Shown in pieces: positions 164 to 63,570 of a DNA stretch of 64,000 nt (the first letter of the stretch is position 1; each line of letters starts with the position of its first letter). The stretch comes from an uncultured Candidatus Saccharibacteria bacterium (GTDB lineage: Bacteria; Patescibacteriota; CAZHWT01): assembly GCA_964597145.1 (NCBI GenBank), contig CAZQWH010000001.1:102441-166440 (forward strand), given 5' to 3'. The notes beneath the pieces were generated by a model. It worked only from the letters and a program-made list of their open reading frames with translations. It was not told the origin of the DNA and searched no databases. Made by a program: the position numbers and the translations under genes.

Positions 164-339
164 GATAGCTAGATTGCAAGAGTGACTTCGCTCCTCATTC
201 CCCACCCTACCTCCCCGCCACTTCCGCCATTAGACTTGCAGGCTGAAGCTCTGAATCTGCAACGCTTGCGTCGCGCGGGCAGGTGATGAAGCCACGGGCT
301 TTAACCTGTGGAGAGTCATTTCCGCCCACACCCTGTCAT

Positions 340-475
340 TCCTGCGCCGCAGGCTCTGAGCAGAGTCGAAGAGGGGGCGGGAATCTAAACGCTTGGATTT
401 ACTGGGCGAGTTTCTGGAGACTTAGTTTAAGTAATTTTGAGTATCCGTCATTGCGAGCAAAGCGCGGCAATCTTG
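340..475 (+). repeat. Intergenic mosaic repeat modules: ctgagcagagtcgaagag and cgtcattgcgagcaaagcgcggcaatcttg
   Basis: Near-identical strings recur at 35618-35640, 42311-42330 and 59248-59300. Confidence 0.55.
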
Positions 476-2454: not shown

Positions 2455-2598
2455 CTACTCGTTCCTTTCCTAATGGCCTCTCGGGGGTATTAAACACAAT
2501 AATCGTTGCCGTTAGCCCGATAATTATGCCACTTTAACCCGCATTCGTCAATACCTAGTTGCCATTATGTTGTTGGAAAATGTCTGAGTTAATAACGA

Positions 2599-2630
2599 TT
2601 AATTATATAATTAATTATATAATTAAATTT
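2599..2630. promoter_or_regulatory. AT-only double palindrome TTAATTATATAATTAATTATATAATTAAATTT (copy 1), candidate promoter/operator
   Basis: Two tandem copies of the perfect palindrome AATTATATAATT, each containing TATAAT. It is 130 bp upstream of the UDG-like gene, and the same motif occurs at 36235, 59628 and 60183. Confidence 0.6.
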
Positions 2631-2762
2631 ATCCTATACCATAGCCATCCAGGGCCAATAGGATTGTCAGGATGCTGCCTCCTACCAATACACAACAAGC
2701 TAATCCATTTAGCGATATAATAACCTCACGAAAAGTATTCGAATTTCATTGGCGAGAACCTC

Positions 2763-3413
2763 ATGCAAAGCAGCACGCTACAAGATTTACATATCTGGTT
2801 TAAGAAATTGGCAGAATTACCCAGCCTGCCCGCCGTTCACAATATATATTCTGCCAAATCCAACAATGGCATTATTCGACTACATAACCTCAAGCGATAT
2901 TTTGAGGTTATGTTGCCACACCAGCCCCAAGTTCTATTAGTAGGCGAAGCACCCGGCTATCAGGGAACCTACCGCACCGGTGTGCCATTTTGCAGCGAAT
3001 CAATTCCACTTGGTCCTCCTAATCAATTTAACTTATTTGGCGGAGAGGCGAATGGATTCCATCGGGTTTACCATGGGGACAAAGTATGGAAAGAGCCTAG
3101 CGCCACCATTGTCCAGCGAACGTTAGACGAAATTAAAAAGCCAATACTCATTTGGTCTACCTTCCCTCTGCATCCACATCAACCAGGCATCGAATTATCC
3201 AATCGAGCGCCTAATCTCCAAGAGATAACACTGGGCAGTCAGCTACTCCAAGAACTCTTAACTATTCTTCAGCCGCCACAAATAGTGGCAGTGGGTAATA
3301 TCGCGCACAAATGTTTAACCTCAATCGGCATCAAAACCGCCAAAGTTCGACACCCTTCACACGGCGGAGCAACCCAATTTCGTCAACAACTACTTCAGCT
3401 AGTAGCCGAGTAA
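2763..3413 (+). CDS. Uracil-DNA glycosylase superfamily protein (family 4-like)
   Basis: Motif A GEAPGYQGTYRTGVPF and motif B HPSHGG match the UDG family 4/5 signatures. Confidence 0.6.
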   Translation: MQSSTLQDLHIWFKKLAELPSLPAVHNIYSAKSNNGIIRLHNLKRYFEVMLPHQPQVLLVGEAPGYQGTYRTGVPFCSESIPLGPPNQFNLFGGEANGFHRVYHGDKVWKEPSATIVQRTLDEIKKPILIWSTFPLHPHQPGIELSNRAPNLQEITLGSQLLQELLTILQPPQIVAVGNIAHKCLTSIGIKTAKVRHPSHGGATQFRQQLLQLVAE

Positions 3414-3438: not shown

Positions 3439-3478
3439 GTTTAACCTCAAAGGTTAAATACCTTTGAACCTAGGTTGC
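3439..3478. repeat. REP-like palindromic unit (left of RAYT)
   Basis: Hairpin ttaacc-tcaaa-ggttaa followed by the perfect palindrome aacctaggtt. It overlaps the 3' end of the RAYT gene. Confidence 0.6.
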
Positions 3479-4202
3479 TTGATTCAGTTTCCATCCTGTT
3501 ATACAGGCTTAAATCACCCAACGCATCCTCATTAGCTTCAAGTAACAAGTGTTGATCTGCTTTTAGTCTCCTCTGATAGTCGGCTCTATCTAGGATGAAC
3601 TGCTTGTACGATTCAGTGTTGTGGGAAAACGAATCAAGAATCGGATCTAAAATAGTAAAGCTATTGTCGCGAAGCTTGAGATATTCAGGCAAAGATGACC
3701 AAGGATAACTCCACAACTCGTCTATAGTTGAAACCGCATGCGACGTGTAGGGATTTAAATGAATATATCTTGATACATGGGTAAGCTGCGTAGCTGTTTC
3801 GATTCTGACAGATTTAAATCTAGTATGGAATAAGGTGCCAGAGCAGCTATGCTTGGCATTATAGTAACGAGTAAAGCTATTTTGAAATTGGCTTAGAAAA
3901 GTAGAAATTCCATTGCTAGTATTTTGCTGTAGGAGCAGGTGAAAATGGTTAGGCATTAAACAGTAGGCCAGAATACCCACCATTGGCTTATTTTGGTTCT
4001 GACCTGCAATCACAAGATGCCGATCTTGTGCATTCATCACTAAAAAGCGAGATAGGCTAACAGTGTTGTTAAAAAGATAATAGTGCAATGCTTCAACGGC
4101 TCGACGGTACTCAGTTGAATTTGTAAACGTCGGCTGGTGATTTTGCCCTCGATTAAAGACATGATATATCTGTCCGTTTACAAGCGGTTGTCGTTTTTGC
4201 AT
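3447..4202 (-). CDS. REP-associated tyrosine transposase (RAYT) / IS200-like Y1 transposase
   Basis: YHVFNRG, HuH motif LMPNHFHLLL and catalytic-Tyr motif RYIHLNP. Flanked by REP-like hairpins. Confidence 0.75.
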   Translation of the reverse strand: MQKRQPLVNGQIYHVFNRGQNHQPTFTNSTEYRRAVEALHYYLFNNTVSLSRFLVMNAQDRHLVIAGQNQNKPMVGILAYCLMPNHFHLLLQQNTSNGISTFLSQFQNSFTRYYNAKHSCSGTLFHTRFKSVRIETATQLTHVSRYIHLNPYTSHAVSTIDELWSYPWSSLPEYLKLRDNSFTILDPILDSFSHNTESYKQFILDRADYQRRLKADQHLLLEANEDALGDLSLYNRMETESSNLGSKVFNL

Positions 4203-4287: not shown

Positions 4288-4345
4288 GCAACCTAGGTCC
4301 AAAGCTATATCACCTTTGAGGTTAAATGACTTTGAACCTAGGTTA
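4288..4345. repeat. REP-like units (right of RAYT), an inverted doublet
   Basis: 4288-4306 gcaacctaggtccaaag is an inverted copy of 3461-3478. 4311-4343 cacctttgaggttaaatgactttgaacctaggtta has the same stem with a flipped loop plus the aacctaggtt palindrome. Confidence 0.6.
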
Positions 4346-4566
4346 CCTGATATATGTGATAGCACTTAATGATCGAAAATCAAAACGGTAAACGTCAAGT
4401 ATGTCTAGTGCAGCTAAAAATGAGGGGGTAGTGGGGATGAGGGTTTACACCTAAGCGATATGAGAGGCGGCTATTAATTGAATAATCAAAGATGGTAAAT
4501 AGCAGAGATTGCCGTACGAAGCTCTTATGCTGGTTAAATCTACAGCCCCTCTAGAAATGAAAAGAA

Positions 4567-9513: not shown

Positions 9514-9735
9514 GGGGACGTATCTCGTATATCAGTTTTTAGTTTTTAGATTTTGATTTGGTATTGGTGATTTCGAACTTGTGATTTGTTTCGACTTCGT
9601 CGAACGGCAGGCACGGATTTCGGATTTCGTACTTCGTATTTCACTCATCGCATCCCGAATTCCGCTCGCTTCGCCATAGCGAAAGCGAGGTGAGCATCCC
9701 GCATCCCTTTTCCGTATCCTGTATCCTAATACCTA
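9514..9735 (+). repeat. Composite intergenic repeat: AT-rich tcgaaatt module plus catcccgcatcc...tgtatcc module
   Basis: Homologous to 27822-27958, the reverse complement of 35790-35945, 63445-63570 and 36068-36088. Confidence 0.6.
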
Positions 9736-11233: not shown

Positions 11234-11598
11234 GTGTCTACTCCTTGCCTCTTGTATAACGGTAGCCTTCCATTGGCCAAACGGGCGTAGTCTAACATAG
11301 ACTGGTTAATATATCAACCTATAGTCATACACAGATCTTGATCGGTCGCCCGCTACGCTATAGATACAACAGCTCATAGTTTTTGATAGAGTAGTTAGGT
11401 ACTGTAGCGGCAAGCCATAGCTTGACAGATCGTAATCCGGCCCGTATAATCCACAACTTGTGTGCCAGGCAAGCTATATATCGAGCCTGGAGGCAATCAA
11501 AACTGTAGTTGCACTAGTTAAACAGTCACAACTACAGTCAGAGAACCTTAACAACCTGAGTGCTAGAAAATGCTGTCGGTAGGCAAGAATCCTTAGGT

Positions 11599-27821: not shown

Positions 27822-27958
27822 TGATCGCCACGCGGTTGCTTTCGCCAGAGGTGGACAGGCGTGATGACAGGAGGGATTCGAAAATCGTATATCAGGTTTT
27901 AGGTTTGGTGTTTCTGATTTCGAGCTTCTGAGTTGTTTCGAATTTCGTATTTAATCTT
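27822..27958 (-). repeat. Composite intergenic repeat, inverted relative to the 35790-35945 copy
   Basis: gatcgccacgcggttgctttcgccagaggtggacaggcgtgatgacaggagggattcgaaaatcgtatatc... is the reverse complement of 35790-35945 with few mismatches. Confidence 0.65.
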
Positions 27959-33540: not shown

Positions 33541-34917
33541 TTAGTCTGATTTGGCTGTTTGGTTTTGAATCCCTACGGCCGAAATAATTCCACCCAGCAA
33601 TAACAGGCCAGCTGTCACTAAAAGACTACGGTGAAAACCACTAACATCGAGCGATGTCCCTATAATCACACCAATAGTTGCAATAGCCAGTAGTCCAGCA
33701 ATCCGAGACACGGCGTTATTAATTGCCGAACCAATCCCAGCCTGCTCATAGCTAATAGCATCCAAAACAGCGGTGGTGAGGGGTGCAACGGTTATAGATA
33801 GGCCGACAGCAAAAAGTATAATACCCGGCAGCAAGGCAACGTAGTCAACCGACTGATCCACGCCCAGCATAGTCATAAAACCAATCGAGCCCACAATCGG
33901 TCCGGCGGCCATAAACCAACGCGGACCATACCGGCCAGCCAGTGTCCCAAATCGAGAAGATAAAAAGAACATAATAATAGTAATCGGTATCAGTGTCAGC
34001 CCGGCTTGGGTGGCAGAGTAACCGCCAACTTGTTGCACAAAGATCGAAATGATAAAAGTAGCCAGCGATAAACCAGCATAGATCAGCAACGTTGCTAGAT
34101 TGCCAACCCAAAAATTGCGATGAGCAAATAAGCCTAACGGTAGCATCGGTTGAGGTGTGTGCTTTTCTTGCCAGCCAAATGCGAATAAAGATAGCGCACC
34201 AACGGTAAAAGGCATATAAATGAGTGGGTGCAACCACCCGTAATGCGATTGCTCAATCAGGGCAAAAACAACGCCACCCAACCCAACCACGCATAGCAAC
34301 GCTCCCCCTAGGTCAAGTTTTATCCGCTTGTGTACCAAAGGGTCTAATTGGATCTGCCTCAGTAACCACAAGGTGATGACTACGGGAAGAGTATTAATAG
34401 CAAAAATCCAGCGCCACGAACCTGCATCCACCAGCAAACCGCCAACCAATGGCCCAACAATAAAAGCAATACCCGTCCACCCCGTCCACGTTCCAATAGC
34501 TTTTGCTCGCAACTGACCAGTAAAGGCCGAAATAATAAAAGCTAAAGAGCTAGGCACTAAAATAGCTCCGGCTACTCCCTGGAGAGTGCGGGAAACAATT
34601 AAAAACTCTGCTATCGGCGCAACCGCACACAGCAACGAGGTTACACCAAAGCCGAGCAAGCCAAGTATCAGCATACGCTTACAGCCCCACAAATCAGAGA
34701 GCGAGCCGGCAATCAACATGAAAGCCCCCAGACTAATCAGGTAAGCATCTACCACCCATTGCTGGATAGAGAGATTACCACTAAATTCATCAGCGATTGC
34801 TGGGAGGGCCACATTAACTACCGACCCATCTAAAAAGGCAATAAACGACGCCAAAATGCTCACCCACAACACGAGTTTTTGTTGTGTATCCATATAGTTC
34901 ACTATACTCCCAGTCAC
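33541..34917 (-). CDS. MFS transporter (DHA2-like, 14 TMS)
   Basis: About 14 TM helices, with MFS motifs GxLaDrxGrkxxl-like ([10 protein letters not shown]). Confidence 0.8.
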
Positions 34918-34992
34918 CAGATACAGCTAGGACGGAATAATTTGACACTAGAAGGACTGCATCCCTATACTGAGGCCAGAAGACTGCCTGCT

Positions 34993-35562
34993 ATGGAATC
35001 AATTGATATCCCTCCTAAATATAAATACGCGGGAACCACCCCGCCTTCAAAATTAGCTGTTTTTCTCAAGCAGCGCTGGATGCTGGTAACCAGCTTAATA
35101 ATCTGCGCGGTAATTGCTTTAAGTCTTGGCACAATCGTCTGGGTTTTGGCTCAACCAGCCCCCGAATCCTCGCACCGAAGCACCATTAACCCACCTACGC
35201 CAACGCCAACTGTTAGACCTTCAGCAACCCCAACTCCGACGCCAAGCCCTACGCCAACCCCAACCCCGACATTAACTCCCACTCCCACCCCAACTCCGTC
35301 GCCAACCCCTACCCTCAACGCCAATATTACGCCATACACAGCAGCCGACTGCAGTGGAGCTAAACAGGTGTATATTTCTAATCCCCATGGTGCACCTGCT
35401 TCAATCCAGCCTCCAGGCAGCTGGCACACCGTCCGAACCTACGAGTATGGTCAAAAAATAACCGTTTTCTGCCAGATTGGCACCACCGATTATGCGCCAG
35501 AGTATGCTCTGGTTAATGACACCTATATTGCCACTTCCGACCTATCCACCACCAAACCGTAG
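34993..35562 (+). CDS. Membrane-anchored protein with long PT-repeat linker
   Basis: TM helix, then about 50 aa of (PTPT/PSPT)n, then a C-terminal Cys-containing domain. Confidence 0.45.
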
Positions 35563-35789
35563 TTGGTAGAGAGTAGACCCTCCCTCCCCATCATTCCCGC
35601 GCCCTAAGCCCTGAGCAGAGTCGAAGAGAAAGCGGAAATGACAATATAAGTACCAAAGGCCTGACCCCTAAAACGTATATACGCCCGTATATACGTTGGC
35701 CAAAATAACTCAGATAAATGATGGAAGGGTAGTGTGTAGGGTGGGATAGGAAACTAGAAGGCAGAAGGCAGAAGGCGGGATGATTAAAT

Positions 35790-35945
35790 ACAAAATTAGA
35801 AATTCGAAATGAGAAACAAATCACAAGCTCGAAATCACAAACACTAACCAAAAACCCGATATACGATATACGATCTTCGAATCCCTCCCGTCATCTCGCC
35901 TGTCCGCCTCTGGCGGAAGCAACCGCGTGGCGATCTTCTCTTTCT
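35790..35945 (+). repeat. Composite intergenic repeat (AT-rich tcgaaat module plus cgtcatctcgcctgtccgcctctggcggaagc module)
   Basis: Homologous to 9514-9735, 27822-27958 and 59436-59470. Confidence 0.65.
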
Positions 35946-35980
35946 CATCAAGATAGCCACAGTCGCTAGTACTTCTTATT

Positions 35981-36160
35981 CAAGCCTAATCCTTCAACCA
36001 TGAGCTTGAGACTGTCAAATGGGCGATGAACCCACGAGAGATCAGAGTCCAATGGCTTCGCAATACCGCATCCCGCATCCTGTATCCCGACACCCGACAC
36101 CCGACACCCGACACCCCTCCCGTCATTCTGGAACGAAGCGTAGCGAAGAGATAGAATCCC
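35981..36160 (+). repeat. Repeat element copy 1: cctaatccttcaaccatgagcttgagac module, internal (CCGACAC)4 microsatellite (36087-36114), then gtcattctgg module
   Basis: Aligns with 42109-42385 except that the internal microsatellite there is (CAGCATC)7. Confidence 0.7.
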
Positions 36161-36234
36161 TCCACTATGCACCGCTCAAAGTCCACCTCACCTGATAGCC
36201 ATGTTAAAAGATATATACAGAGATAAATACAAAG

Positions 36235-36264
36235 AATTATATAATTAATTATATAATTAAATTT
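36235..36264. promoter_or_regulatory. AT-only double palindrome, copy 2
   Basis: aattatataattaattatataattaaattt, identical to copy 1, upstream of the 36468 ORF. Confidence 0.6.
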
Positions 36265-36467
36265 ACTGAATAATTTGCATCAAAATTACTCCTTTAGGCT
36301 CAAAAGAAGTACTAGGGTAGCATCAATTAACCCCAGCAACGAGCAAGACGAGAACCGTCCTAAATTACGACAAAAAGACTTATAGTATATTCTTGGAGGT
36401 AAAAATATGGTATGATTACAATTACAAGCGAGTGGCCATTTGTTCGTTGACCTGGGAGAGAAGCACG

Positions 36468-36746
36468 ATGGTGGGAATCATTGCGATTTCGGATGAAACA
36501 ACCGAAATTTTGCAAGAGTTTCGCGACAAGTTCGACCAACTCAATCAGCCAGTCGGTATCGATATTAGCGCTGACCAGTTGCTGGAGCAGATTGCAGCCA
36601 TAAACACGCTGCGTAGGCAAGTCGATGACTGGAATATAGAGCAGCTCGATCAATGTAATCAGGCCGATGCCATGATTGCGTCGAGTGATCTGCTAGAGAT
36701 CATCGAGGCCGCCATCAACGACCGGTACGACATTTTGGCTGGCTAA
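36468..36746 (+). CDS. Hypothetical small acidic protein
   Basis: ORF downstream of AT palindrome copy 2, followed by terminator 36777-36804. Confidence 0.4.
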   Translation: MVGIIAISDETTEILQEFRDKFDQLNQPVGIDISADQLLEQIAAINTLRRQVDDWNIEQLDQCNQADAMIASSDLLEIIEAAINDRYDILAG

Positions 36747-36776
36747 CAGGCAACTAACTTGTCCGGCTTAAACCAA

Positions 36777-36804
36777 GCCCTGCCGTTTTAGGCGGGGCTT
36801 TTTG
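36777..36804 (+). terminator. Terminator gccctgcc-gtttta-ggcggggc-TTTTT
   Basis: Stem with one mismatch and a T-run. Member of the GGCGGGG family. Confidence 0.55.
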
Positions 36805-41956: not shown

Positions 41957-42108
41957 TCAACCGTGGTTATCGCGGATAATACAGAGCAGACAATATCCTG
42001 TCAAGAATTGACACCCACAATATTTGAAACAAATCCCAAACCAGACCTGCCCGCCATGCTTTCGCTGGCCAAGCAGGCAGGTTGCCGCAGTCGTTATCAC
42101 TCCTCATT

Positions 42109-42385
42109 CAAACCTAATCCTTCAACCATGAGCTTGAGACCGTCGAATGGGTGATGAGGCTTGAGTCTTTAGAGTCCAACAGCTTCACCATGACGTATAC
42201 TAACCTTCTCCAGCATCCAGCATCCAGCATCCAGCATCCAGCATCCAGCATCCAGCATCCCGACACCCTCCCCGTCATTCTGTCATTCGGCTCTGATCTC
42301 TAGCGACCTCATCGCTCAGACTCGAAGAGGAACGCAGTGTATTTTAGACGCGAAGCGGCTCGTGCTTTAGCACATAGAATCCCCT
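42109..42385 (+). repeat. Repeat element copy 2: cctaatccttcaaccatgagcttgagac module, (CAGCATC)7 microsatellite (42211-42260), then gtcattctgtcattcgg...gtattttagacgc...ggctcgtgctttagcacatagaatc module
   Basis: Aligns with 35981-36160 and 59288-59352. Confidence 0.7.
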
Positions 42386-55534: not shown

Positions 55535-56128
55535 ATGGCAGAAGCAACAAACCAGGCACAACTAAATACTCGGAATCCACGGACAAGCCCTCGCCAGAGA
55601 GGTCGCAACACCGAAGAGGTAAAAAGCGAATTTACTGAACAGGTGGTCCAGGTTAATCGTACCAGCAAGAAGACAAAAGGTGGCAATAATATGTCGTTTA
55701 GTGCCATTGTGGTAGTTGGCGACAAAAAAGGCCGAGTTGGTGTGGGCATGGGTAAAGCGCCAGAAGTAGCCGACGCGATCCGCAAAGGATCAGCCAAGGC
55801 TAAGAAGTCTTTTATCACCGTACCAATGTACCATGCCACCATCCCTCATCAAATTGAGGTCAAGTTAGGTGCAGCTCGAGTATTATTAAAGCCTGCCTCT
55901 GAGGGCACGGGAGTTATTGCTGGTGGTGCGGTTCGTGCAGTGGTTGAAGCTGCCGGTATTCGTGATGTGTTATCTAAAGTTTTGGGTACAAATAATAAAG
56001 CCAGTAACGTGCATGCTACAATTGAAGCATTAAAGCAGCTCCAAGCCCGGCCCGAAGTTCAAGCTAAAGCCAAAAAGTCTGTCTCAGCCGCCGCTCATCC
56101 TGTAGACGAAGCTAAGGCAAAGGAATAA
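55535..56128 (+). CDS. rpsE: 30S ribosomal protein S5
   Basis: S5 dsRBD. rplO follows 4 bp later, so no rpmD is present. Confidence 0.95.
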
Positions 56129-56132
56129 GATC

Positions 56133-56579
56133 ATGGATTTATCAACCTTACAATCGGTAATTTCAAAACAAAAAAAGCGGGTTGGTCGAGGATATGGTAG
56201 CGGTAAAGCCAAGACTGCTGGCCGTGGAACCAAGGGGCAATTAGCTCGTGGTACCACTCGACCAGGGTTCGAGGGTGGACAGCTACCATTAATTAAACGA
56301 TTGCCATTCCGTCGCGGATTTGGAAACACTTCACGCTATGTGAAGCCATTAGCCATTAATGCCGCTCGGCTTTCAGCAATTCCGGCCGGCTCCATGGTCA
56401 GTCCCGAGACTTTAGTTAAGCACGGACTAGTGCCAGCGTCCTATCGAGGCGAGATTAAAGTGATTGGCTTAACTGGCAAAGAATCATTCAAGTTTGAAGG
56501 TATTTTATTTACCAAAAGCGCCAAAGTTGGCAAAACCCATCCCAAGGACGATCGCCCTTCGGACAAAGCTGAAAAATAA
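56133..56579 (+). CDS. rplO: 50S ribosomal protein L15
   Basis: L15 signature. Confidence 0.9.
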
Positions 56580-59173: not shown

Positions 59174-59199
59174 TAGGCACTGGGCACCTGCCCGCAAAC

Positions 59200-59560
59200 A
59201 CCAGCAAGCTGGCTTGCGTGGCGGGTGGGGTAGACAGACCTCTTCTCTTCGTCATTGCGAGGAACCAAGCGACGTGGCAATCTTCTCTGACTGTCATCCT
59301 GGAGCGGAGCGTATTTTAGACGCAAGTGGCTCGTGCACTAGCACATAGGATCTGGTCATCAAATCAGAAATCACAAAGCCTAAATACGAAACAAATTCCA
59401 ACTCAGAAGTTATAAGATTGAAACACATAACCGACCGTCATTGCGCCTGTCAGCCTCTGGCTAAAGCGGCCTGTGCTGAGCGCAGTCAAAACAAGCGCAT
59501 CATTCTCCTCTGATTGTCATTCTGGAGCCAGCGAAGCGTGGCGATAGAATCTTGAGAGCG
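59200..59560 (+). repeat. Intergenic mosaic repeat island (gtcattgcgagg module, gtcatcctggagcggagcgtattttagacgcaagtggctcgtgcactagcacatag module, partial AT-rich module, ccgtcattgcgcctgtcagcctctggc module, gtcattctggagccagcgaagcgtggcgatagaatc)
   Basis: Each sub-module has homologues at 428-475, 42274-42385, 37340-37462(-), 35876-35945 and 36121-36160. Confidence 0.65.
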
Positions 59561-59627
59561 CCAATCAGCAGAACAACGCAACCTATATACAACTCTTGCT
59601 AAGTATTATTTACAGAGTTAAATACAG

Positions 59628-59655
59628 TTAATTATATAATAAATTATATAATTAA
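59628..59655. promoter_or_regulatory. AT-only double palindrome, copy 3 (variant TTAATTATATAATAAATTATATAATTAA)
   Basis: About 120 bp upstream of ORF 59778. Confidence 0.6.
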
Positions 59656-59777
59656 CTAACGCATATTCTTTCAATCGTACCATAAGATTCCTAGAAAGAA
59701 TCTTATGGTAATTTACAAGTAGGTGGCTGTGTGGTATTTTATGTGACATTGCTCGATCTGAGTCTGGAGATAGATAA

Positions 59778-60065
59778 ATGGTGGCGACACATTACGATCT
59801 TTTTATGCCGCGTGAAGCTGTTGGAGATCGCAAACACGAGTTAGCAGGTTTGATCCACGAACTGACAGAGCTTGGAGTCACCGCAACTCTCGATTCCACT
59901 TCCTGGCCCGAAGTTCTATGGGTTATCATCCCACAGGGCACAACTGCGGAGACAGTAGGCGGCATCTTGCTTCTTGCCACCGTCCATTATAGACACTTAG
60001 GACTTAACAGCATCGGGGTAACGCCATCTATGCACAATGGCTCAGTTGCTCTCCGATTCAAGTAA
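59778..60065 (+). CDS. Hypothetical small protein (cassette gene 1)
   Basis: RBS ggag 9 nt upstream. Inserted between map and infA. Confidence 0.4.
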   Translation: MVATHYDLFMPREAVGDRKHELAGLIHELTELGVTATLDSTSWPEVLWVIIPQGTTAETVGGILLLATVHYRHLGLNSIGVTPSMHNGSVALRFK

Positions 60066-60182
60066 GGCTCAATCATTCATGGGCTCACTGACATCAGCGA
60101 GCCCATCCCTTATCTTCATTATTTGGTAAACTAAAACCATGTTAACACTAATGTATGTTAACACTAACAGAGATAAAAGTGA

Positions 60183-60213
60183 TTAATTATATAATAAATT
60201 ATATAATTAATTT
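60183..60213. promoter_or_regulatory. AT-only double palindrome, copy 4, ending 13 nt before the ATG of cassette gene 2
   Basis: ttaattatataataaattatataattaattt, followed by RBS aaaggtgg and ATG 60226. Confidence 0.6.
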
Positions 60214-60225
60214 GAAAGGTGGAAC

Positions 60226-60756
60226 ATGTCCAGTTTTGTCTATCATGCAGTGCCCAGAAACTTTCAGGGCACTACAATTTACCCACTCAACCAATTAAAA
60301 AACGTATATCCTACTATCTATACTGAGCGAGTTAAAGCTTACTCCTGGCGACCCGAGGTTATGGAGCAGCCAGTCCACCCTCTCAATTGCTTCTGGAATG
60401 ATTGTATATTCCTCACGGCCACACCGCCGCAATTAGTTAAGCAAGAATTGTATAAAATTGATCCAGGCCACCAGTTTCCATCCAAATTCTGGAAGATTGA
60501 TGCCCATACTTTAGAGCCTCAAAACACCACCATTTACAATTTTGCCACCAACGTTCGCCCACATCCTGCCCAAGATTTTTTACCGTATAACCCAGGTAAT
60601 CTTGAAGAATATACTCAAGTACCATCAAGAACCATAGAATATTGGCAGCAGTGCATTTACGAAGGCCGGAAAAGAATGCTGCTGTACTTGTATATTCCAC
60701 ACATTATGTACAAAGGCACCATCAACACTCGCGAATTGGAAATTGTGGAGGTATAG
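60226..60756 (+). CDS. Hypothetical aromatic-rich protein (cassette gene 2)
   Basis: 176 aa with a strong RBS. Its stop lies 2 nt before the next start. Confidence 0.45.
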   Translation: MSSFVYHAVPRNFQGTTIYPLNQLKNVYPTIYTERVKAYSWRPEVMEQPVHPLNCFWNDCIFLTATPPQLVKQELYKIDPGHQFPSKFWKIDAHTLEPQNTTIYNFATNVRPHPAQDFLPYNPGNLEEYTQVPSRTIEYWQQCIYEGRKRMLLYLYIPHIMYKGTINTRELEIVEV

Positions 60757-60758
60757 AC

Positions 60759-61574
60759 ATGTCGGCTGAAATTACGGTAAATAGCAATCCGGATATAGCT
60801 CTGTCGGGATATGTTCTTAATGTGCTTGGCTTAAAAAAACACCCTTGGACCAAGCGCGGTCCACTGGCTGGCGTGCCAGATGAGTTGATTGAGAAGGCAG
60901 CAGCATACATAGAGTTGAAGTCTAAAATCAGCTTTCAACAGCACCCATTAACAGATCTATCATCCCAAAACCAATCGACAAAGAACCTAATCAAAGAAAT
61001 TGAGCAACTACACAATCGCCAATTAGACCATTACACTGAGAATATTCAAGCCAGTCAGGACTTTTTACAAAAAGTTCTGGATCGAACCGAAGGTCAACTA
61101 GCAGATGTAATTGAGCAATCGACCCGGATATCGTGGCCGTTTGAGCAAGTGTATCTAGTGCCATCGCTTTACCAGGGCGGTACAGTGCATGGTCAGTATG
61201 TATTTATGGGATTCTTCCCCGGTAAGCCAGGAAAGAAAAATGCATCGGGAGTGATACATGAACTAGTTCATGTAAACACGTATGAAGCAAGCAAGCCGCT
61301 ACGGCAATCGTTAAAGCTACCCACGGACTCTATCGAAGCGGCAACCGTTTTAGTGACAAATAAAGCGGTACATCATCTCAATCACCAAATCAAATCTTTA
61401 GACCTGACCGACAACAGCTTTTCAACTTATTATCGAGACTATATTCTTGATCATGGTCAGAATTTAACCAACCTTGCTACTAAGCATGTTAAATATGCCG
61501 AGCTAGTGCAAGCAATTGACCAGTATTTCATCGACAACAAGTACCCGGGCTACTTTAAGCAGCATGGAATTTAG
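60759..61574 (+). CDS. Hypothetical HExxH-motif protein, putative zinc metallopeptidase (cassette gene 3)
   Basis: GVIHELVHVNTYE. Translationally coupled to gene 2. Confidence 0.45.
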   Translation: MSAEITVNSNPDIALSGYVLNVLGLKKHPWTKRGPLAGVPDELIEKAAAYIELKSKISFQQHPLTDLSSQNQSTKNLIKEIEQLHNRQLDHYTENIQASQDFLQKVLDRTEGQLADVIEQSTRISWPFEQVYLVPSLYQGGTVHGQYVFMGFFPGKPGKKNASGVIHELVHVNTYEASKPLRQSLKLPTDSIEAATVLVTNKAVHHLNHQIKSLDLTDNSFSTYYRDYILDHGQNLTNLATKHVKYAELVQAIDQYFIDNKYPGYFKQHGI

Positions 61575-61678
61575 TCCATTAGGAAGCTATATCCTATAGT
61601 AATTGACAATTTCCCTGAGTAGTAGTAATATACACCAACGTTAAGACCTTCTAGTTCTTGTCAAGAAAGGCAGAAGCT

Positions 61679-61987
61679 ATGTCGACGATGGTTAAACAGA
61701 TTTGTGTCAATTGTGGCAAGGAATTTGCAACCAACAACGGTTCCAATTCCTGCTACGATTGCACCTTGTCGCGGACTGCCGGCGGTCTGATTCCGGAGGA
61801 AGGTGACTTCCGCACTGCGCGTATCATCTCCGGAACGATGAGCAACCAGCAGCATCAAGACTTGGTTGGTGACTTGTCATCAATTGAGCTTGATGACCCT
61901 GCGCCGGAGACGGAGAATTGCCCGTACTGCGGGTACTATGACCGGCGCTGGTGCAATAGTAGCAATTGCCCGGGCTCTGAGAGTTAA
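61679..61987 (+). CDS. Hypothetical zinc-ribbon protein (cassette gene 4)
   Basis: CVNCGKE...CYDC...CPYCGYYDRRWCNSSNCPG. RBS gaaagg. Confidence 0.45.
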   Translation: MSTMVKQICVNCGKEFATNNGSNSCYDCTLSRTAGGLIPEEGDFRTARIISGTMSNQQHQDLVGDLSSIELDDPAPETENCPYCGYYDRRWCNSSNCPGSES

Positions 61988-62191
61988 TGGTATCTATCCA
62001 AACTTTCGGGTCGAGGTCTTGGAGTGCCAGCGGAAGCCTTGTTGGCCCCACCCCTGCTTGACCCATACGTCAGGCGTCTACCTGGACGACTCTTTCTTGT
62101 TTTTAATTGAATCTGCAGCCCTAATACCTTTGAGTTTTGACCTGTGATTCTGCCCTTTACCCTTAGAATTTTGACCTAGCTAACCGGAGTG

Positions 62192-62221
62192 TTGACTTCC
62201 AGGGGTTATATGCGTTATAAT
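62192..62221 (+). promoter_or_regulatory. Sigma70-like promoter TTGACT-18-TATAAT upstream of infA
   Basis: Consensus-like hexamers. Confidence 0.55.
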
Positions 62222-62229
62222 CCGCCAGT

Positions 62230-62258
62230 ATCACCAGAGATTACGGTGATCGTTTTTT
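62230..62258 (+). promoter_or_regulatory. Leader hairpin atcacc-agagattac-ggtgat plus T6, abutting the infA ATG
   Basis: The terminator-like hairpin sequesters the GGTGA SD-like element. It may be an attenuator or translational operator. Confidence 0.4.
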
Positions 62259-63444: not shown

Positions 63445-63570
63445 AATTCGAAGTAAAAAATACGAAATCAGAAACAAATAAGAAATAATAAATTAGAAAT
63501 AGGAAACGTTTTTGTAATTTCGAACTTCTCATTTGTTTAGGATTTATGATTTAAGATTTAGGATTTTATT
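63445..63570. repeat. AT-rich tcgaaat-type repeat module between rpsK and rpsD
   Basis: aattcgaagtaaaaaatacgaaatcagaaacaaat...taatttcgaacttctcatttgtttaggattt, related to 9514, 27865 and 35790. Confidence 0.55.

What the first reader, a model, noticed from the sequence alone, without database searches (positions are those of the whole stretch)
2599..2630. AT-only double palindrome (AATTATATAATT x2) upstream of four hypothetical genes
A 28-32 bp motif composed only of A and T, made of two tandem copies of the perfect palindrome AATTATATAATT, each with an embedded TATAAT, occurs four times: 2599-2630, 36235-36264, 59628-59655 and 60183-60213. Each copy is in an intergenic region on the 5' side of a plus-strand gene: the UDG-like gene, the 36468 acidic ORF, and cassette genes 1 and 2. 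A half-site sits 7 nt before the yjbQ ATG. In a 48% GC genome, a 30-nt AT-only dyad repeated to near identity is very unlikely by chance. It looks like a shared operator for a dimeric regulator, or a strong duplicated -10 promoter module, and it defines a small regulon.
Basis: seen in the sequence. Interest (0 to 1): 0.65.

Follow-up and report, generated by a model that had tools for sequence, protein, structure and literature searches.

The report
Dispersed AT-only palindromic promoter-like repeat
A 50-65 base intergenic repeat, whose core is two back-to-back copies of the AT-only palindrome AATTATATAATT, sits ahead of four unrelated genes in this Patescibacteria-like genome; it behaves like a portable, promoter-type dispersed repeat rather than the operator of a regulon, and the same core recurs as a dispersed repeat in a scattering of other bacteria.

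Summary
AATTATATAATT (at most 1 mismatch) occurs 8 times, as four tandem pairs at the stated coordinates, against 0.39 expected by chance. These pairs are the four longest AT-only runs in the window.

The element is larger than reported. It is a directional composite of about 60 nt: ATGT, then N11, then CAGAG(A/T)TAAA, then N7, then the core, then AAnTTT.

A related organism in JGI sample Ga0079224 carries the same composite eight times. One copy lies at the orthologous map|95-aa-gene junction. Ten of the 12 composites point at a co-directional gene or tRNA 17-217 nt downstream.

Three results argue against an operator or regulon:
- The downstream genes are unrelated.
- Homologues and orthologues in relatives lack the motif.
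- In about 20 other genomes (Patescibacteria, Bacteroidota) the bare core lies at transcription-unit boundaries. It is often between convergent genes or touching stop codons, as REP elements do.

Best reading (confidence 0.4): a dispersed palindromic repeat carrying perfect -10 hexamers, acting as a portable promoter without a -35 element. Main rival (0.3): a REP-like selfish or structural repeat with no selected promoter role. A RAYT-like Y1 transposase gene lies 820 nt from copy 1, but its link to the motif is unproven.

The motif was not found in the searchable literature. I rate it a new variant of a known kind, of moderate interest.

The parts
2567..2632 (+). Composite copy c1. ATGT at 2567-2570, CTGAG box at 2584-2588 (box 2583-2593), core 2601-2624 (perfect 24-nt palindrome), AT-only run 2598-2632.
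   Evidence: (76% identity to c2 over 49 nt). It lies between a called 99-aa minus-strand ORF (2155-2454), which has a minus-strand promoter-like site at 2551-2523, and the UDG-superfamily gene 138 nt downstream.
36201..36265 (+). Composite copy c2. ATGT at 36201-36204, ACAGAGATAAA at 36217-36227, core 36235-36258 (perfect palindrome), followed by AAATTTA.
   Evidence: (reference copy). The simple scan finds no other sigma-70-like site between it and the ORF at 36468. An intrinsic terminator follows that ORF at 36775-36800.
59596..59655 (+). Composite copy c3. TTGC at 59596-59599, ACAGAGTTAAA at 59612-59622, core 59630-59653 (A at the unit junction).
   Evidence: (88% identity to c2). It is conserved at the orthologous map|95-aa junction in L148, as an island of about 47 nt in otherwise diverged spacer. 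A 13-bp hairpin (59679-59711) and a TTTACA-N17-TATTTT site (59712-59740) lie between it and the gene.
60151..60213 (+). Composite copy c4. ATGT at 60151-60154, ACAGAGATAAA at 60167-60177, core 60185-60208 (A at the junction), AT-only run 60182-60213.
   Evidence: (78% identity to c2). The core ends 17 nt before the ATG at 60226, with GAAAGGTGG in between.
2763..3413 (+). Gene downstream of c1: uracil-DNA glycosylase superfamily, 216 aa.
   Evidence: Pfam PF03167, E = 1.4e-11. NCBIfam family-4 UDG matches fall below the cutoff. Orthologues at 59-66% identity in three relatives have no motif within 13-20 kb.
36468..36746 (+). Gene downstream of c2: 92-aa ORFan.
   Evidence: No Pfam or NCBIfam hit. 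Singleton cluster.
59778..60065 (+). Gene downstream of c3: 95-aa ORFan.
   Evidence: No family hit. 60% identical to the L148 ORF. Only one other relative among 1.84 billion representatives. The single-sequence AF2 model has pLDDT 73 and a ferredoxin-like fold, with no DNA-binding fold match.
60226..60756 (+). Gene downstream of c4: 176-aa ORFan, followed by 271-aa and 102-aa ORFs.
   Evidence: No family hit. Eleven homologues at 32-53% identity sit in other contexts without the motif.

Best explanation
The four sites are copies of a dispersed intergenic repeat of about 50-65 bp. Its core is a tandem pair of the AT-only 12-bp palindrome AATTATATAATT.

Each unit carries a perfect sigma-70 -10 hexamer (TATAAT) on both strands, in DNA that melts very easily. 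I infer that wherever a copy lands it acts as a portable promoter that does not depend on a -35 element.

In this lineage the core is joined to a conserved upstream box (ACAGAG exactly 17 nt before the first TATAAT, and ATGT 11 nt further up). This box makes the element directional. It may stand in for a -35 element or bind an accessory factor. Transcription would start about 7 nt after one of the two TATAAT boxes and run into the downstream gene.

The copies spread or are kept alike as a repeat family, by mobilisation or gene conversion (mechanism not shown), and not as the operators of a functionally coherent regulon.

Shown: the repeat family, its anatomy, its fixed spacing, its orientation bias, its conservation at one orthologous site, and its sporadic distribution.

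Inferred: promoter activity, the role of the upstream box, and the mode of spread.
For: - The motif is strongly non-random and forms a discrete family.
- The composite has fixed spacing in 12 independent copies, 4 in the window and 8 in Ga0079224 contigs.
- The box never occurs without the core.
- Ten of the 12 composites point to a co-directional ORF or tRNA 17-217 nt downstream; binomial p is about 0.02.
- The composite is a conserved island in the otherwise unalignable map|95-aa spacer of two relatives, whose Map is 85% and 95-aa ORF 60% identical.
- Copy c4 has -10, a short leader with a Shine-Dalgarno sequence, and ATG in ideal geometry.
- c2 has no alternative promoter candidate. For c4 the only other candidate is a weak CTGACA-N17-TATCTT site about 110 nt upstream of the ATG (9 of 12 matches).
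- Only 10 of the 64 AT-only palindromic 12-mers contain TATAAT.
- In other genomes the commonest order is gene, terminator, array, next gene. Arrays also lie 4-56 nt upstream of tRNA genes (L001, L018, L030).
- Copies are 76-88% identical over 49 nt and lie upstream of non-homologous genes. This fits the operational definition of putative mobile promoters (PMC3488235).
Against: - No -35 hexamer lies at 16-18 nt, whereas ordinary promoters in the same window are canonical TTGACA-N17-TATAAT.
- c3, its orthologue L148, and L104 each have a separate canonical-looking promoter between the composite and the gene. This was read from the sequences.
- Two of the 12 composites (L123, L134) do not face a co-directional gene.
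- The orientation bias could instead reflect a replication-strand bias of a single-strand transposition mechanism.
- In other genomes 9-11 bare arrays lie between convergent, Pfam-confirmed genes. Seventeen of 50 gene-3' flanks lie within 10 nt of the array, against 1 of 34 gene-5' flanks.
- There are no transcript data.
Confidence: 0.4

Rival explanations
1. REP/BIME-like selfish or structural palindromic repeat with no selected promoter role. On this reading the AT-only hairpin-forming element is copied around the genome. It might be mobilised as single-stranded DNA by a Y1 (RAYT/IS200-like) transposase, or spread by gene conversion. It persists only where it does no harm, namely at the 3' side of genes and at transcription-unit boundaries. 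There it may also serve as a topological or protein-binding boundary element.
For: - In about 20 other moderate-GC genomes the de-duplicated contexts are tandem 16, convergent 9-11 and divergent 2. Both divergent cases are dubious.
- Arrays abut stop codons. From memory of the REP/BIME literature, that is the classic REP distribution.
- The unit number varies from 2 to 4.
- The phylogenetic distribution is sporadic, and the motif is absent from relatives' homologous loci.
- Assemblies break at the array (L071, L074, L157 and many MAG contig ends).
- A conserved box at a fixed distance 5' of a hairpin resembles the recognition architecture of Y1 transposases.
- A RAYT-like Y1 transposase gene lies 820 nt from c1. 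A 29%-identical homologue lies 2.1 kb from an array in L040.
Against: - The extragenic flanks of both RAYT-like genes carry other hairpin repeats, not the AT array. REPINs are expected to flank their RAYT (PMC5581495).
- No terminal inverted repeats or target-site duplications were seen.
- The element is very short.
- The core is exactly the -10 consensus.
- In this lineage the copies are not at gene 3' ends, and 10 of 12 point at downstream genes.
Confidence: 0.3
2. Operator for a dimeric DNA-binding protein. Each 12-bp palindrome would bind a dimer, and adjacent units would bind cooperatively. This would repress or activate the adjacent genes, or a nucleoid-associated protein would mark these sites.
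For: - Perfect dyad symmetry and contiguous units of variable number (2-4), as in tandem operator arrays such as MetJ boxes or Fur hexamer arrays (comparison from memory).
- Near-perfect sequence conservation within and between genomes.
- If block A (ATGTTR) and TAAAT are read as -35 and -10 with a 17-nt spacer, the dyad starts at about +1, a classical operator position.
- The site is conserved at an orthologous position.
Against: - The downstream genes are functionally unrelated and mostly ORFans.
- No regulator gene was found next to any copy. The 95-aa ORF has a ferredoxin-like fold and not an HTH or RHH fold.
- Orthologues and homologues in relatives lack the site.
- Many sites in other genomes lie between convergent genes or are insulated between two terminators, where there is nothing to regulate.
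- The candidate -10 (TAAAWN) lacks the conserved final T in 7 of 12 copies.
Confidence: 0.15
3. RNA-level element. The dyad would be transcribed as an AU hairpin in 5' or 3' untranslated or intercistronic RNA. There it would act in processing, stability or translation, for example as an RNase site, a ribosome-stalling element next to stop codons, or an AU-rich leader.
For: - Arrays lie within 10 nt of stop codons in 17 of 50 gene-3' flanks.
- Arrays lie between cistrons of one operon: secY|adk in L059, 4 nt after the stop codon and 2 nt before the start codon.
Against: - The hairpin is weak: -4.6 to -11.2 kcal/mol as DNA, and the z-score is significant for only 2 of the 4 copies.
- There is no Rfam match.
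- Some arrays are insulated between two terminators (L070/L120).
- In the window the copies lie far from stop codons.
Confidence: 0.08
4. Chance low-complexity AT-rich sequence, or an assembly artefact.
For: The sequence is AT-only and of low complexity. Contigs often end at it.
Against: - 8 hits against 0.39 expected.
- The same sites are present in independent Logan assemblies of several runs and in a second organism.
- The flanking boxes are conserved.
Confidence: 0.01

Closest known systems
Putative mobile promoters (PMPs; Matus-Garcia et al. 2012, PMC3488235)
   Same: A family of highly similar upstream non-coding segments of about 50-100 nt (here 49-66 nt, 76-88% identical) lying in front of non-homologous genes in one genome. 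Some such families are shared across distant taxa.
   Different: PMPs are defined only by similarity and position. Here the core is a 12-nt AT-only palindrome in tandem. It has no -35 element, and in other genomes it also sits between convergent genes, which a promoter family should not do.
REP / REPIN elements with RAYT transposases (Bertels & Rainey 2011, PMC3116915; Bertels et al. 2017, PMC5581495)
   Same: Short extragenic palindromes, over-represented and near-identical, dispersed and lineage-specific. They occur at tandem and convergent gene junctions and close to stop codons. A RAYT-like Y1 transposase gene is present in the window.
   Different: The core is AT-only, whereas classical REPs are GC-rich imperfect palindromes with a GTAG-type 5' tetranucleotide (from memory). 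The repeats flanking the RAYT-like gene are a different sequence. The copy number seen is low (4 in about 74 kb). In this lineage the copies are directional and lie upstream of genes.
Sigma-70 promoters that rely on the -10 element (from established knowledge of bacterial promoters)
   Same: A perfect TATAAT in easily melted AT-rich DNA. For c4 the distance to the Shine-Dalgarno sequence and ATG is right.
   Different: There is no TGn extension and no -35. The hexamers are duplicated and bidirectional. The whole 24-36 nt sequence is conserved far more strictly than promoter function needs.
Tandem-dyad operators such as MetJ met-boxes and the Fur hexamer-array model (recalled from memory; a lead only)
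   Same: Contiguous short palindromic units in variable number. The core can be written as four NAT(A/T)AT hexamers.
   Different: The period is 12 bp. The dyad geometry is ATTAT-0-ATAAT within a unit and ATAAT-N2-ATTAT across the junction, not the Fur-family 7-1-7. My best ungapped match to the 19-bp Fur consensus was 10 of 19. There is no coherent regulon and no regulator.

Membership tests
Sigma-70 promoter | -10 hexamer close to TATAAT | tested here: met
   Two perfect TATAAT per strand in every copy.
Sigma-70 promoter | -35 hexamer close to TTGACA, 16-18 nt upstream of the -10 | tested here: not met
   The consensus scan reports no + strand site using the motif's TATAAT. The hexamer at a 17-nt spacing is ACAGAG.
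Sigma-70 promoter | Lies upstream of, and is co-oriented with, a transcription unit | tested here: met
   4 of 4 in the window and 10 of 12 composites in the lineage. This does not hold for bare arrays in other genomes.
Sigma-70 promoter | A transcription start about 7 nt downstream of the -10 | not testable with these tools
   No transcript data are available.
Putative mobile promoter (PMP) | At least two upstream regions of 50-100 nt, at least 80% identical, in front of non-homologous genes | tested here: inconclusive
   Over 49 nt, identity to c2 is 76%, 88% and 78%. The downstream genes are non-homologous. Length and identity sit at the edge of the definition (PMC3488235).
REP/REPIN-RAYT system | Short, over-represented extragenic palindromes | tested here: met
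   All copies are intergenic.
REP/REPIN-RAYT system | The same repeat fills the extragenic space flanking the RAYT gene | tested here: not met
   The RAYT-like gene at 3447-4202 is flanked by a different 40-nt repeat (3444-3483 and 4312-4351). The nearest AT array is 820 nt away, beyond the UDG gene. The criterion comes from PMC5581495.
REP/REPIN-RAYT system | A RAYT (Y1 HUH transposase) encoded in the genome | tested here: inconclusive
   Pfam Y1_Tnp scores 38 bits, above its cutoff of 23. NCBIfam REP_Tyr_transpos scores 58.5 bits, below its cutoff of 80. HUH (HFH) and YIHLNP motifs are present.
REP/REPIN-RAYT system | Found at gene 3' ends, in tandem or convergent junctions and not divergent ones | tested here: inconclusive
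   Met for bare arrays in other genomes. Not met for the window copies, which lie 119-670 nt from upstream stop codons. c1 is probably in a divergent region.
MITE | Terminal inverted repeats and target-site duplications at sharp ends | tested here: inconclusive
   Alignment of the 12 copies shows no sharp ends or flanking direct repeats. No empty site was available. The paralogous repeat at 42079-42282 ends before the composite.
Integron gene cassette / attC | An attC site with RYYYAAC...GTTRRRY core sites | tested here: not met
   The core is AT-only and so cannot hold these sites. The presence of an integrase gene was not tested.
Intrinsic terminator | A G+C-rich stem followed by a T-run | tested here: not met
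   The terminator scan does not call the motif. The stem is AT-only, at -4.6 to -11.2 kcal/mol. Canonical GC-rich terminators exist nearby.
Fur-family operator | 7-1-7 inverted repeat / 19-bp Fur-box consensus | tested here: not met
   By inspection of the sequence the dyads have a spacer of 0 or 2 nt, not 1. The best ungapped match to the recalled consensus was 10 of 19. The consensus itself is from memory.
Known RNA family | A match to an Rfam covariance model | tested here: not met
   No hit at gathering score in the whole window. In 59400-60400 there was only a sub-threshold NrrF hit of 23 bits, against a gathering score of 60.

The most novel reading that the evidence does not exclude
The AT-only 12-nt tandem palindrome may be the signature of an undescribed class of transcription-unit boundary element shared by scattered Patescibacteria and Bacteroidota. 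It would either be mobilised as a single-stranded hairpin by RAYT-like Y1 transposases, or be bound by a horizontally transferred DNA-binding protein. One Saccharimonadales-like lineage would then have joined it to an upstream box and co-opted it as a directional promoter module.
Probability: 0.2. Interest if true: 0.7.

Novelty: new variant of a known kind. Interest (0 to 1): 0.45.

Why it matters
Regulatory and repeat signals in Patescibacteria (the candidate phyla radiation) are almost uncharacterised.

- If this compact, near-invariant 60-nt module drives transcription, it would be a ready-made promoter part for the new genetic systems in Saccharibacteria. It would also be a marker for transcription-unit starts in MAG annotation.
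- If it is instead a REP-like element, it would extend REP/RAYT biology to ultra-small genomes and to AT-only palindromes. It would also explain a recurrent cause of contig breaks in these MAGs.
- Either way, the motif should not be used to infer a regulon.

Tried and rejected
1. Phage origin. A viral-contig scan gave only 8 single hits, in AT-rich giant-virus or phage contigs.
2. Linkage to a gene family. Homologues of the 176-aa gene and orthologues of the UDG gene lack the motif. The 95-aa ORF has essentially no homologues.
3. Autoregulated transcription factor downstream. The 95-aa ORF has a ferredoxin-like fold with no DNA-binding match.
4. Conserved small ORF across blocks A, B and the core. 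c2 would encode 15 codons, but c1 and L093 stop after 2-6 codons (reading).
5. Orthologous conservation between Harrisonbacteria L037 and Parcubacteria L016. The arrays turned out to lie in different intergenic spacers of a similar murB...secA neighbourhood.
6. Orientation signal from the A/T asymmetry at the unit junction. It is not consistent relative to transcription, and it is flipped between c3 and its orthologue L148.
7. Empty-site comparison using the paralogous 200-nt repeat at 35951-36130 and 42079-42282. Similarity ends before the composite.
8. Known RNA families. None matched. There are no tRNA genes in the window.
9. Literature search by sequence string and by topic. Nothing relevant was found.
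10. The Clostridiales hits in the genome scan are a different element. There the 24-mer is the apex of a conserved imperfect palindrome of about 90 nt in 25-28% GC genomes, with no shared neighbouring gene.
11. Fur-box, attC and terminator readings. See the membership tests.

Full report
**Observation**

AATTATATAATT with at most one mismatch gives eight hits. These form four tandem pairs at 2601-2624, 36235-36258, 59630-59653 and 60185-60208. Dinucleotide-preserving shuffles give 0.39 hits, and none of 100 shuffles reaches eight.

The four sites are the longest AT-only runs in the window, at 28-35 nt. The next longest run is 20 nt. The window's GC content is 0.43-0.50.

The family is discrete. 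No isolated unit has 0-1 mismatches. The nine isolated 2-mismatch matches, including the 'half-site' before the UPF0047/yjbQ gene, are close to the 5.1 expected by chance.

**Anatomy**

Aligning the copies shows that the conserved element is larger than reported and is directional. Its parts, in order, are:
- ATGT at -34 to -31 from the core.
- An AT-rich stretch.
- A[CT][AT]GAG[AT]TAAA at -18 to -8.
- aTT.
- The 24-nt core.
- AAnTTT.

ACAGAG lies exactly 17 nt before the first TATAAT. The box never occurs in the window without the core.

All four copies are on the + strand, in intergenic DNA. They lie 138, 210, 124 and 17 nt upstream of + strand ORFs. As single-stranded DNA the dyad folds only weakly, at -4.6 to -11.2 kcal/mol. 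Rfam and ARAGORN find nothing.

**Organism**

The window's proteins are singletons from a 244-kb NCBI contig and from Logan assemblies of runs SRR118438xx.
- SecY is 54% identical to that of a Patescibacteria MAG.
- A 60%-identical UDG homologue is named Candidatus Saccharimonadales by its source.
- No L30 gene lies between S5 and L15. From memory, this is a trait of the candidate phyla radiation.

I therefore treat the source as a Saccharimonadales-like patescibacterium. This is an inference.

Ordinary promoters in the window look like canonical TTGACA-N17-TATAAT, for example near 11425, 61603 and 62193.

**Downstream genes**

The gene after c1 belongs to the UDG superfamily. The other downstream genes (92, 95, 176, 271 and 102 aa) have no Pfam or NCBIfam family.

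The 95-aa ORF is predicted to have a ferredoxin-like fold with no DNA-binding match. The model is a single-sequence one with pLDDT 73.

Homologues of the 176-aa gene (32-53% identity) and orthologues of the UDG gene (59-66% identity) lie in other contexts. No unit with two or fewer mismatches occurs within 7-20 kb of them, apart from one isolated 2-mismatch unit in L154. There is therefore no functional coherence and no gene-linked conservation, which argues against a regulon.

**A second organism with the same composite**

The metagenome scan found eight contigs from JGI sample Ga0079224 (GC about 0.40). They carry the same composite with identical spacing.

L148 is the orthologous locus: map (85% identical), the composite, then a 97-aa ORF (60% identical). 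The spacers differ in length, 604 against 285 nt, and do not align except for an island of about 47 nt that is the box plus the core.

Ten of the 12 composites face a co-directional ORF or tRNA 17-217 nt away, with binomial p of about 0.02. L123 faces the 3' end of a folA-like gene on the other strand. L134 is ambiguous.

Three composites (c3, L148 and L104) each have a separate canonical-looking promoter between the composite and the gene. These are TTTACA-N17-TATTTT, TTTACA-N17-TATGTT and TTTGAA-N17-TATAAT (and sequences).

**The bare core elsewhere**

The genome-collection scan gave 70 loci. It did not return the window's own genome.

One group of hits is a different element of about 90 nt in Clostridiales, in 25-28% GC genomes. 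Setting that group aside, the 24-mer occurs in moderate-GC genomes as arrays of two to four 12-nt units, without the upstream box:
- About ten Patescibacteria. One Harrisonbacteria MAG has 10 loci, S139_126 has 7, and a Falkowbacteria MAG has 5. There are also several Saccharibacteria and Parcubacteria.
- Four Bacteroidota. At least L011 is a genuine Bacteroidota contig, because it carries a DUF4249 gene.
- A few others.

Other intergenic spacers in the same loci lack the array.

After de-duplication the contexts are 16 tandem, 9 convergent and 2 divergent. Manual checks raise convergent to 11: L005 is rpmA, terminator, array, then rplI on the opposite strand, and L070/L120 is also convergent. 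Both divergent cases are dubious.

Pfam-confirmed genes flank several convergent sites. Seventeen of 50 flanks that are gene 3' ends lie within 10 nt of the array, against 1 of 34 flanks that are gene 5' ends.

The commonest order is gene, terminator, array, next gene. The reverse order also occurs, as does an array enclosed by two terminators. Some arrays lie 4-56 nt before tRNA genes. One lies 2 nt before the adk start codon, inside the secY-adk-map operon. The A/T asymmetry at the unit junction shows no consistent orientation.

From memory of the REP/BIME literature, this is the distribution of a REP/BIME-type element or a boundary element. It is not the distribution of a dedicated promoter.

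**A transposase lead**

The ORF at 3447-4202 (minus strand) is a Y1 HUH transposase:
- Pfam Y1_Tnp scores 38 bits, above its cutoff of 23.
- NCBIfam REP-associated tyrosine transposase scores 58.5 bits, below its cutoff of 80.
- It has HFH and YIHLNP motifs.

It lies 820 nt from c1. Its only homologue among all fetched loci lies 2.1 kb from an array in L040. That family was also the only non-housekeeping family shared between array neighbourhoods of different genomes.

However, each of these genes is flanked by its own, different hairpin repeat. REPINs are expected to flank their RAYT (PMC5581495). The link is therefore unproven.

**Interpretation**

The core is exactly the -10 consensus on both strands, in the most easily melted DNA of the window. 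Only 10 of the 64 possible AT-only 12-mer palindromes contain TATAAT. For c4 the geometry down to the start codon is ideal.

My best reading (confidence 0.4) is a dispersed palindromic repeat that works as a portable promoter without a -35 element. In this lineage a conserved upstream box makes it directional. It resembles the putative mobile promoters of Matus-Garcia et al. (PMC3488235).

The rivals are:
- A REP-like selfish or structural repeat with no selected promoter role (0.3). The cross-genome contexts and the sporadic distribution favour this.
- A true operator for a dimeric protein (0.15). This reading has some support. If ATGTTR and TAAAT are read as -35 and -10 with a 17-nt spacer, the dyad starts at about +1. 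However, that candidate -10 lacks its final T in 7 of 12 copies.
- An RNA-level element (0.08).
- Chance or an artefact (0.01).

**Novelty**

The motif strings and the topic searches returned nothing relevant in the searchable literature. Dispersed palindromic repeats and mobile promoters are known kinds. An AT-only 12-nt tandem palindrome shared by scattered Patescibacteria and Bacteroidota, joined in one lineage to a directional box, looks like a new variant of a known kind. I rate the interest as moderate. The function remains untested.

Noticed in passing
window 3447-4202 (-), with repeats at 3444-3483 and 4312-4351: A 251-aa Y1 HUH (IS200/RAYT-like) transposase gene lies tail-to-tail with the UDG gene. 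It is flanked by two direct copies of a 40-nt hairpin-bearing repeat found nowhere else in the window. This looks like a single IS200-like unit or a RAYT with its own REP.
   Followed up: partly
window 59174-62258: About 3 kb holding four ORFan genes (95, 176, 271 and 102 aa) and many repeats is inserted between map and infA in the ribosomal-protein superoperon. The relative L148 has map followed by the 97-aa homologue and two further small ORFs (104 and 94 aa) that I did not compare with it.
   Followed up: partly
window 331-384, 35586-35639, 36124-36160, 59262-59300, 59440-59550, 42270-42282: A second family of intergenic hairpin repeats of the type GTCATTC(T/C)..GAAGCG..GAATC/GAATGAC is scattered through the long spacers. 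Two members lie about 77 nt upstream of c2 and c3.
   Followed up: no
window 35951-36130 and 42079-42282: A repeat of about 200 nt (85% then 72% identical) ends in heptanucleotide microsatellites, (GACACCC)n and (ATCCAGC)n, followed by CCCGTCATTCTG. The second copy lies upstream of rpsL.
   Followed up: partly
window 9561-9591, 27908-27938, 63508-63538, 35786-35809: Another short repeat family, rich in TTTCGAA/ATTTCG motifs, occurs in several intergenic regions.
   Followed up: no
L071 and L074 (start), L157 (end); many MAG contig ends (L004, L008, L009, L025, L028, L039, L041, L048, L057, L061): Assemblies frequently break exactly at the AT array. Either the array is repeated often enough to tangle assembly graphs, or AT-only palindromes cause coverage drop-outs.
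   Followed up: no
L003, L007, L010, L012, L015, L017, L022, L023, L026, L035, L042, L044, L046, L052-L054, L056, L063, L066, L067, L152: In five Clostridiales MAGs (25-28% GC) the same 24-mer is the apex of a conserved, multi-copy imperfect palindrome of about 90 nt (..GGTGTCGCAATT..ATGTTC[core]GAAC..CAATTGCTCCAGTCGCC). This is a different repeat family of unknown nature.
   Followed up: partly
window 59679-59711: A perfect 13-bp hairpin (GTACCATAAGATTC..GAATCTTATGGTA) lies 25 nt downstream of c3 and just before a TTTACA-N17-TATTTT promoter-like site. It is not conserved in the orthologous L148 spacer.
   Followed up: no
window 55535-56579 (and L072 1270-2314): No L30 gene lies between the S5 and L15 genes of the spc operon, which is consistent with a CPR/Patescibacteria origin.
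   Followed up: no
window 34879-35562: This ORF has a Pro/Thr-rich tandem repeat region (35194-35312), which suggests a surface or linker protein.
   Followed up: no
L104 679-714: A TTTGAA-N17-TATAAT site lies just 6 nt before the ATG of the downstream gene, which suggests a leaderless mRNA in the relative of the window organism.
   Followed up: no
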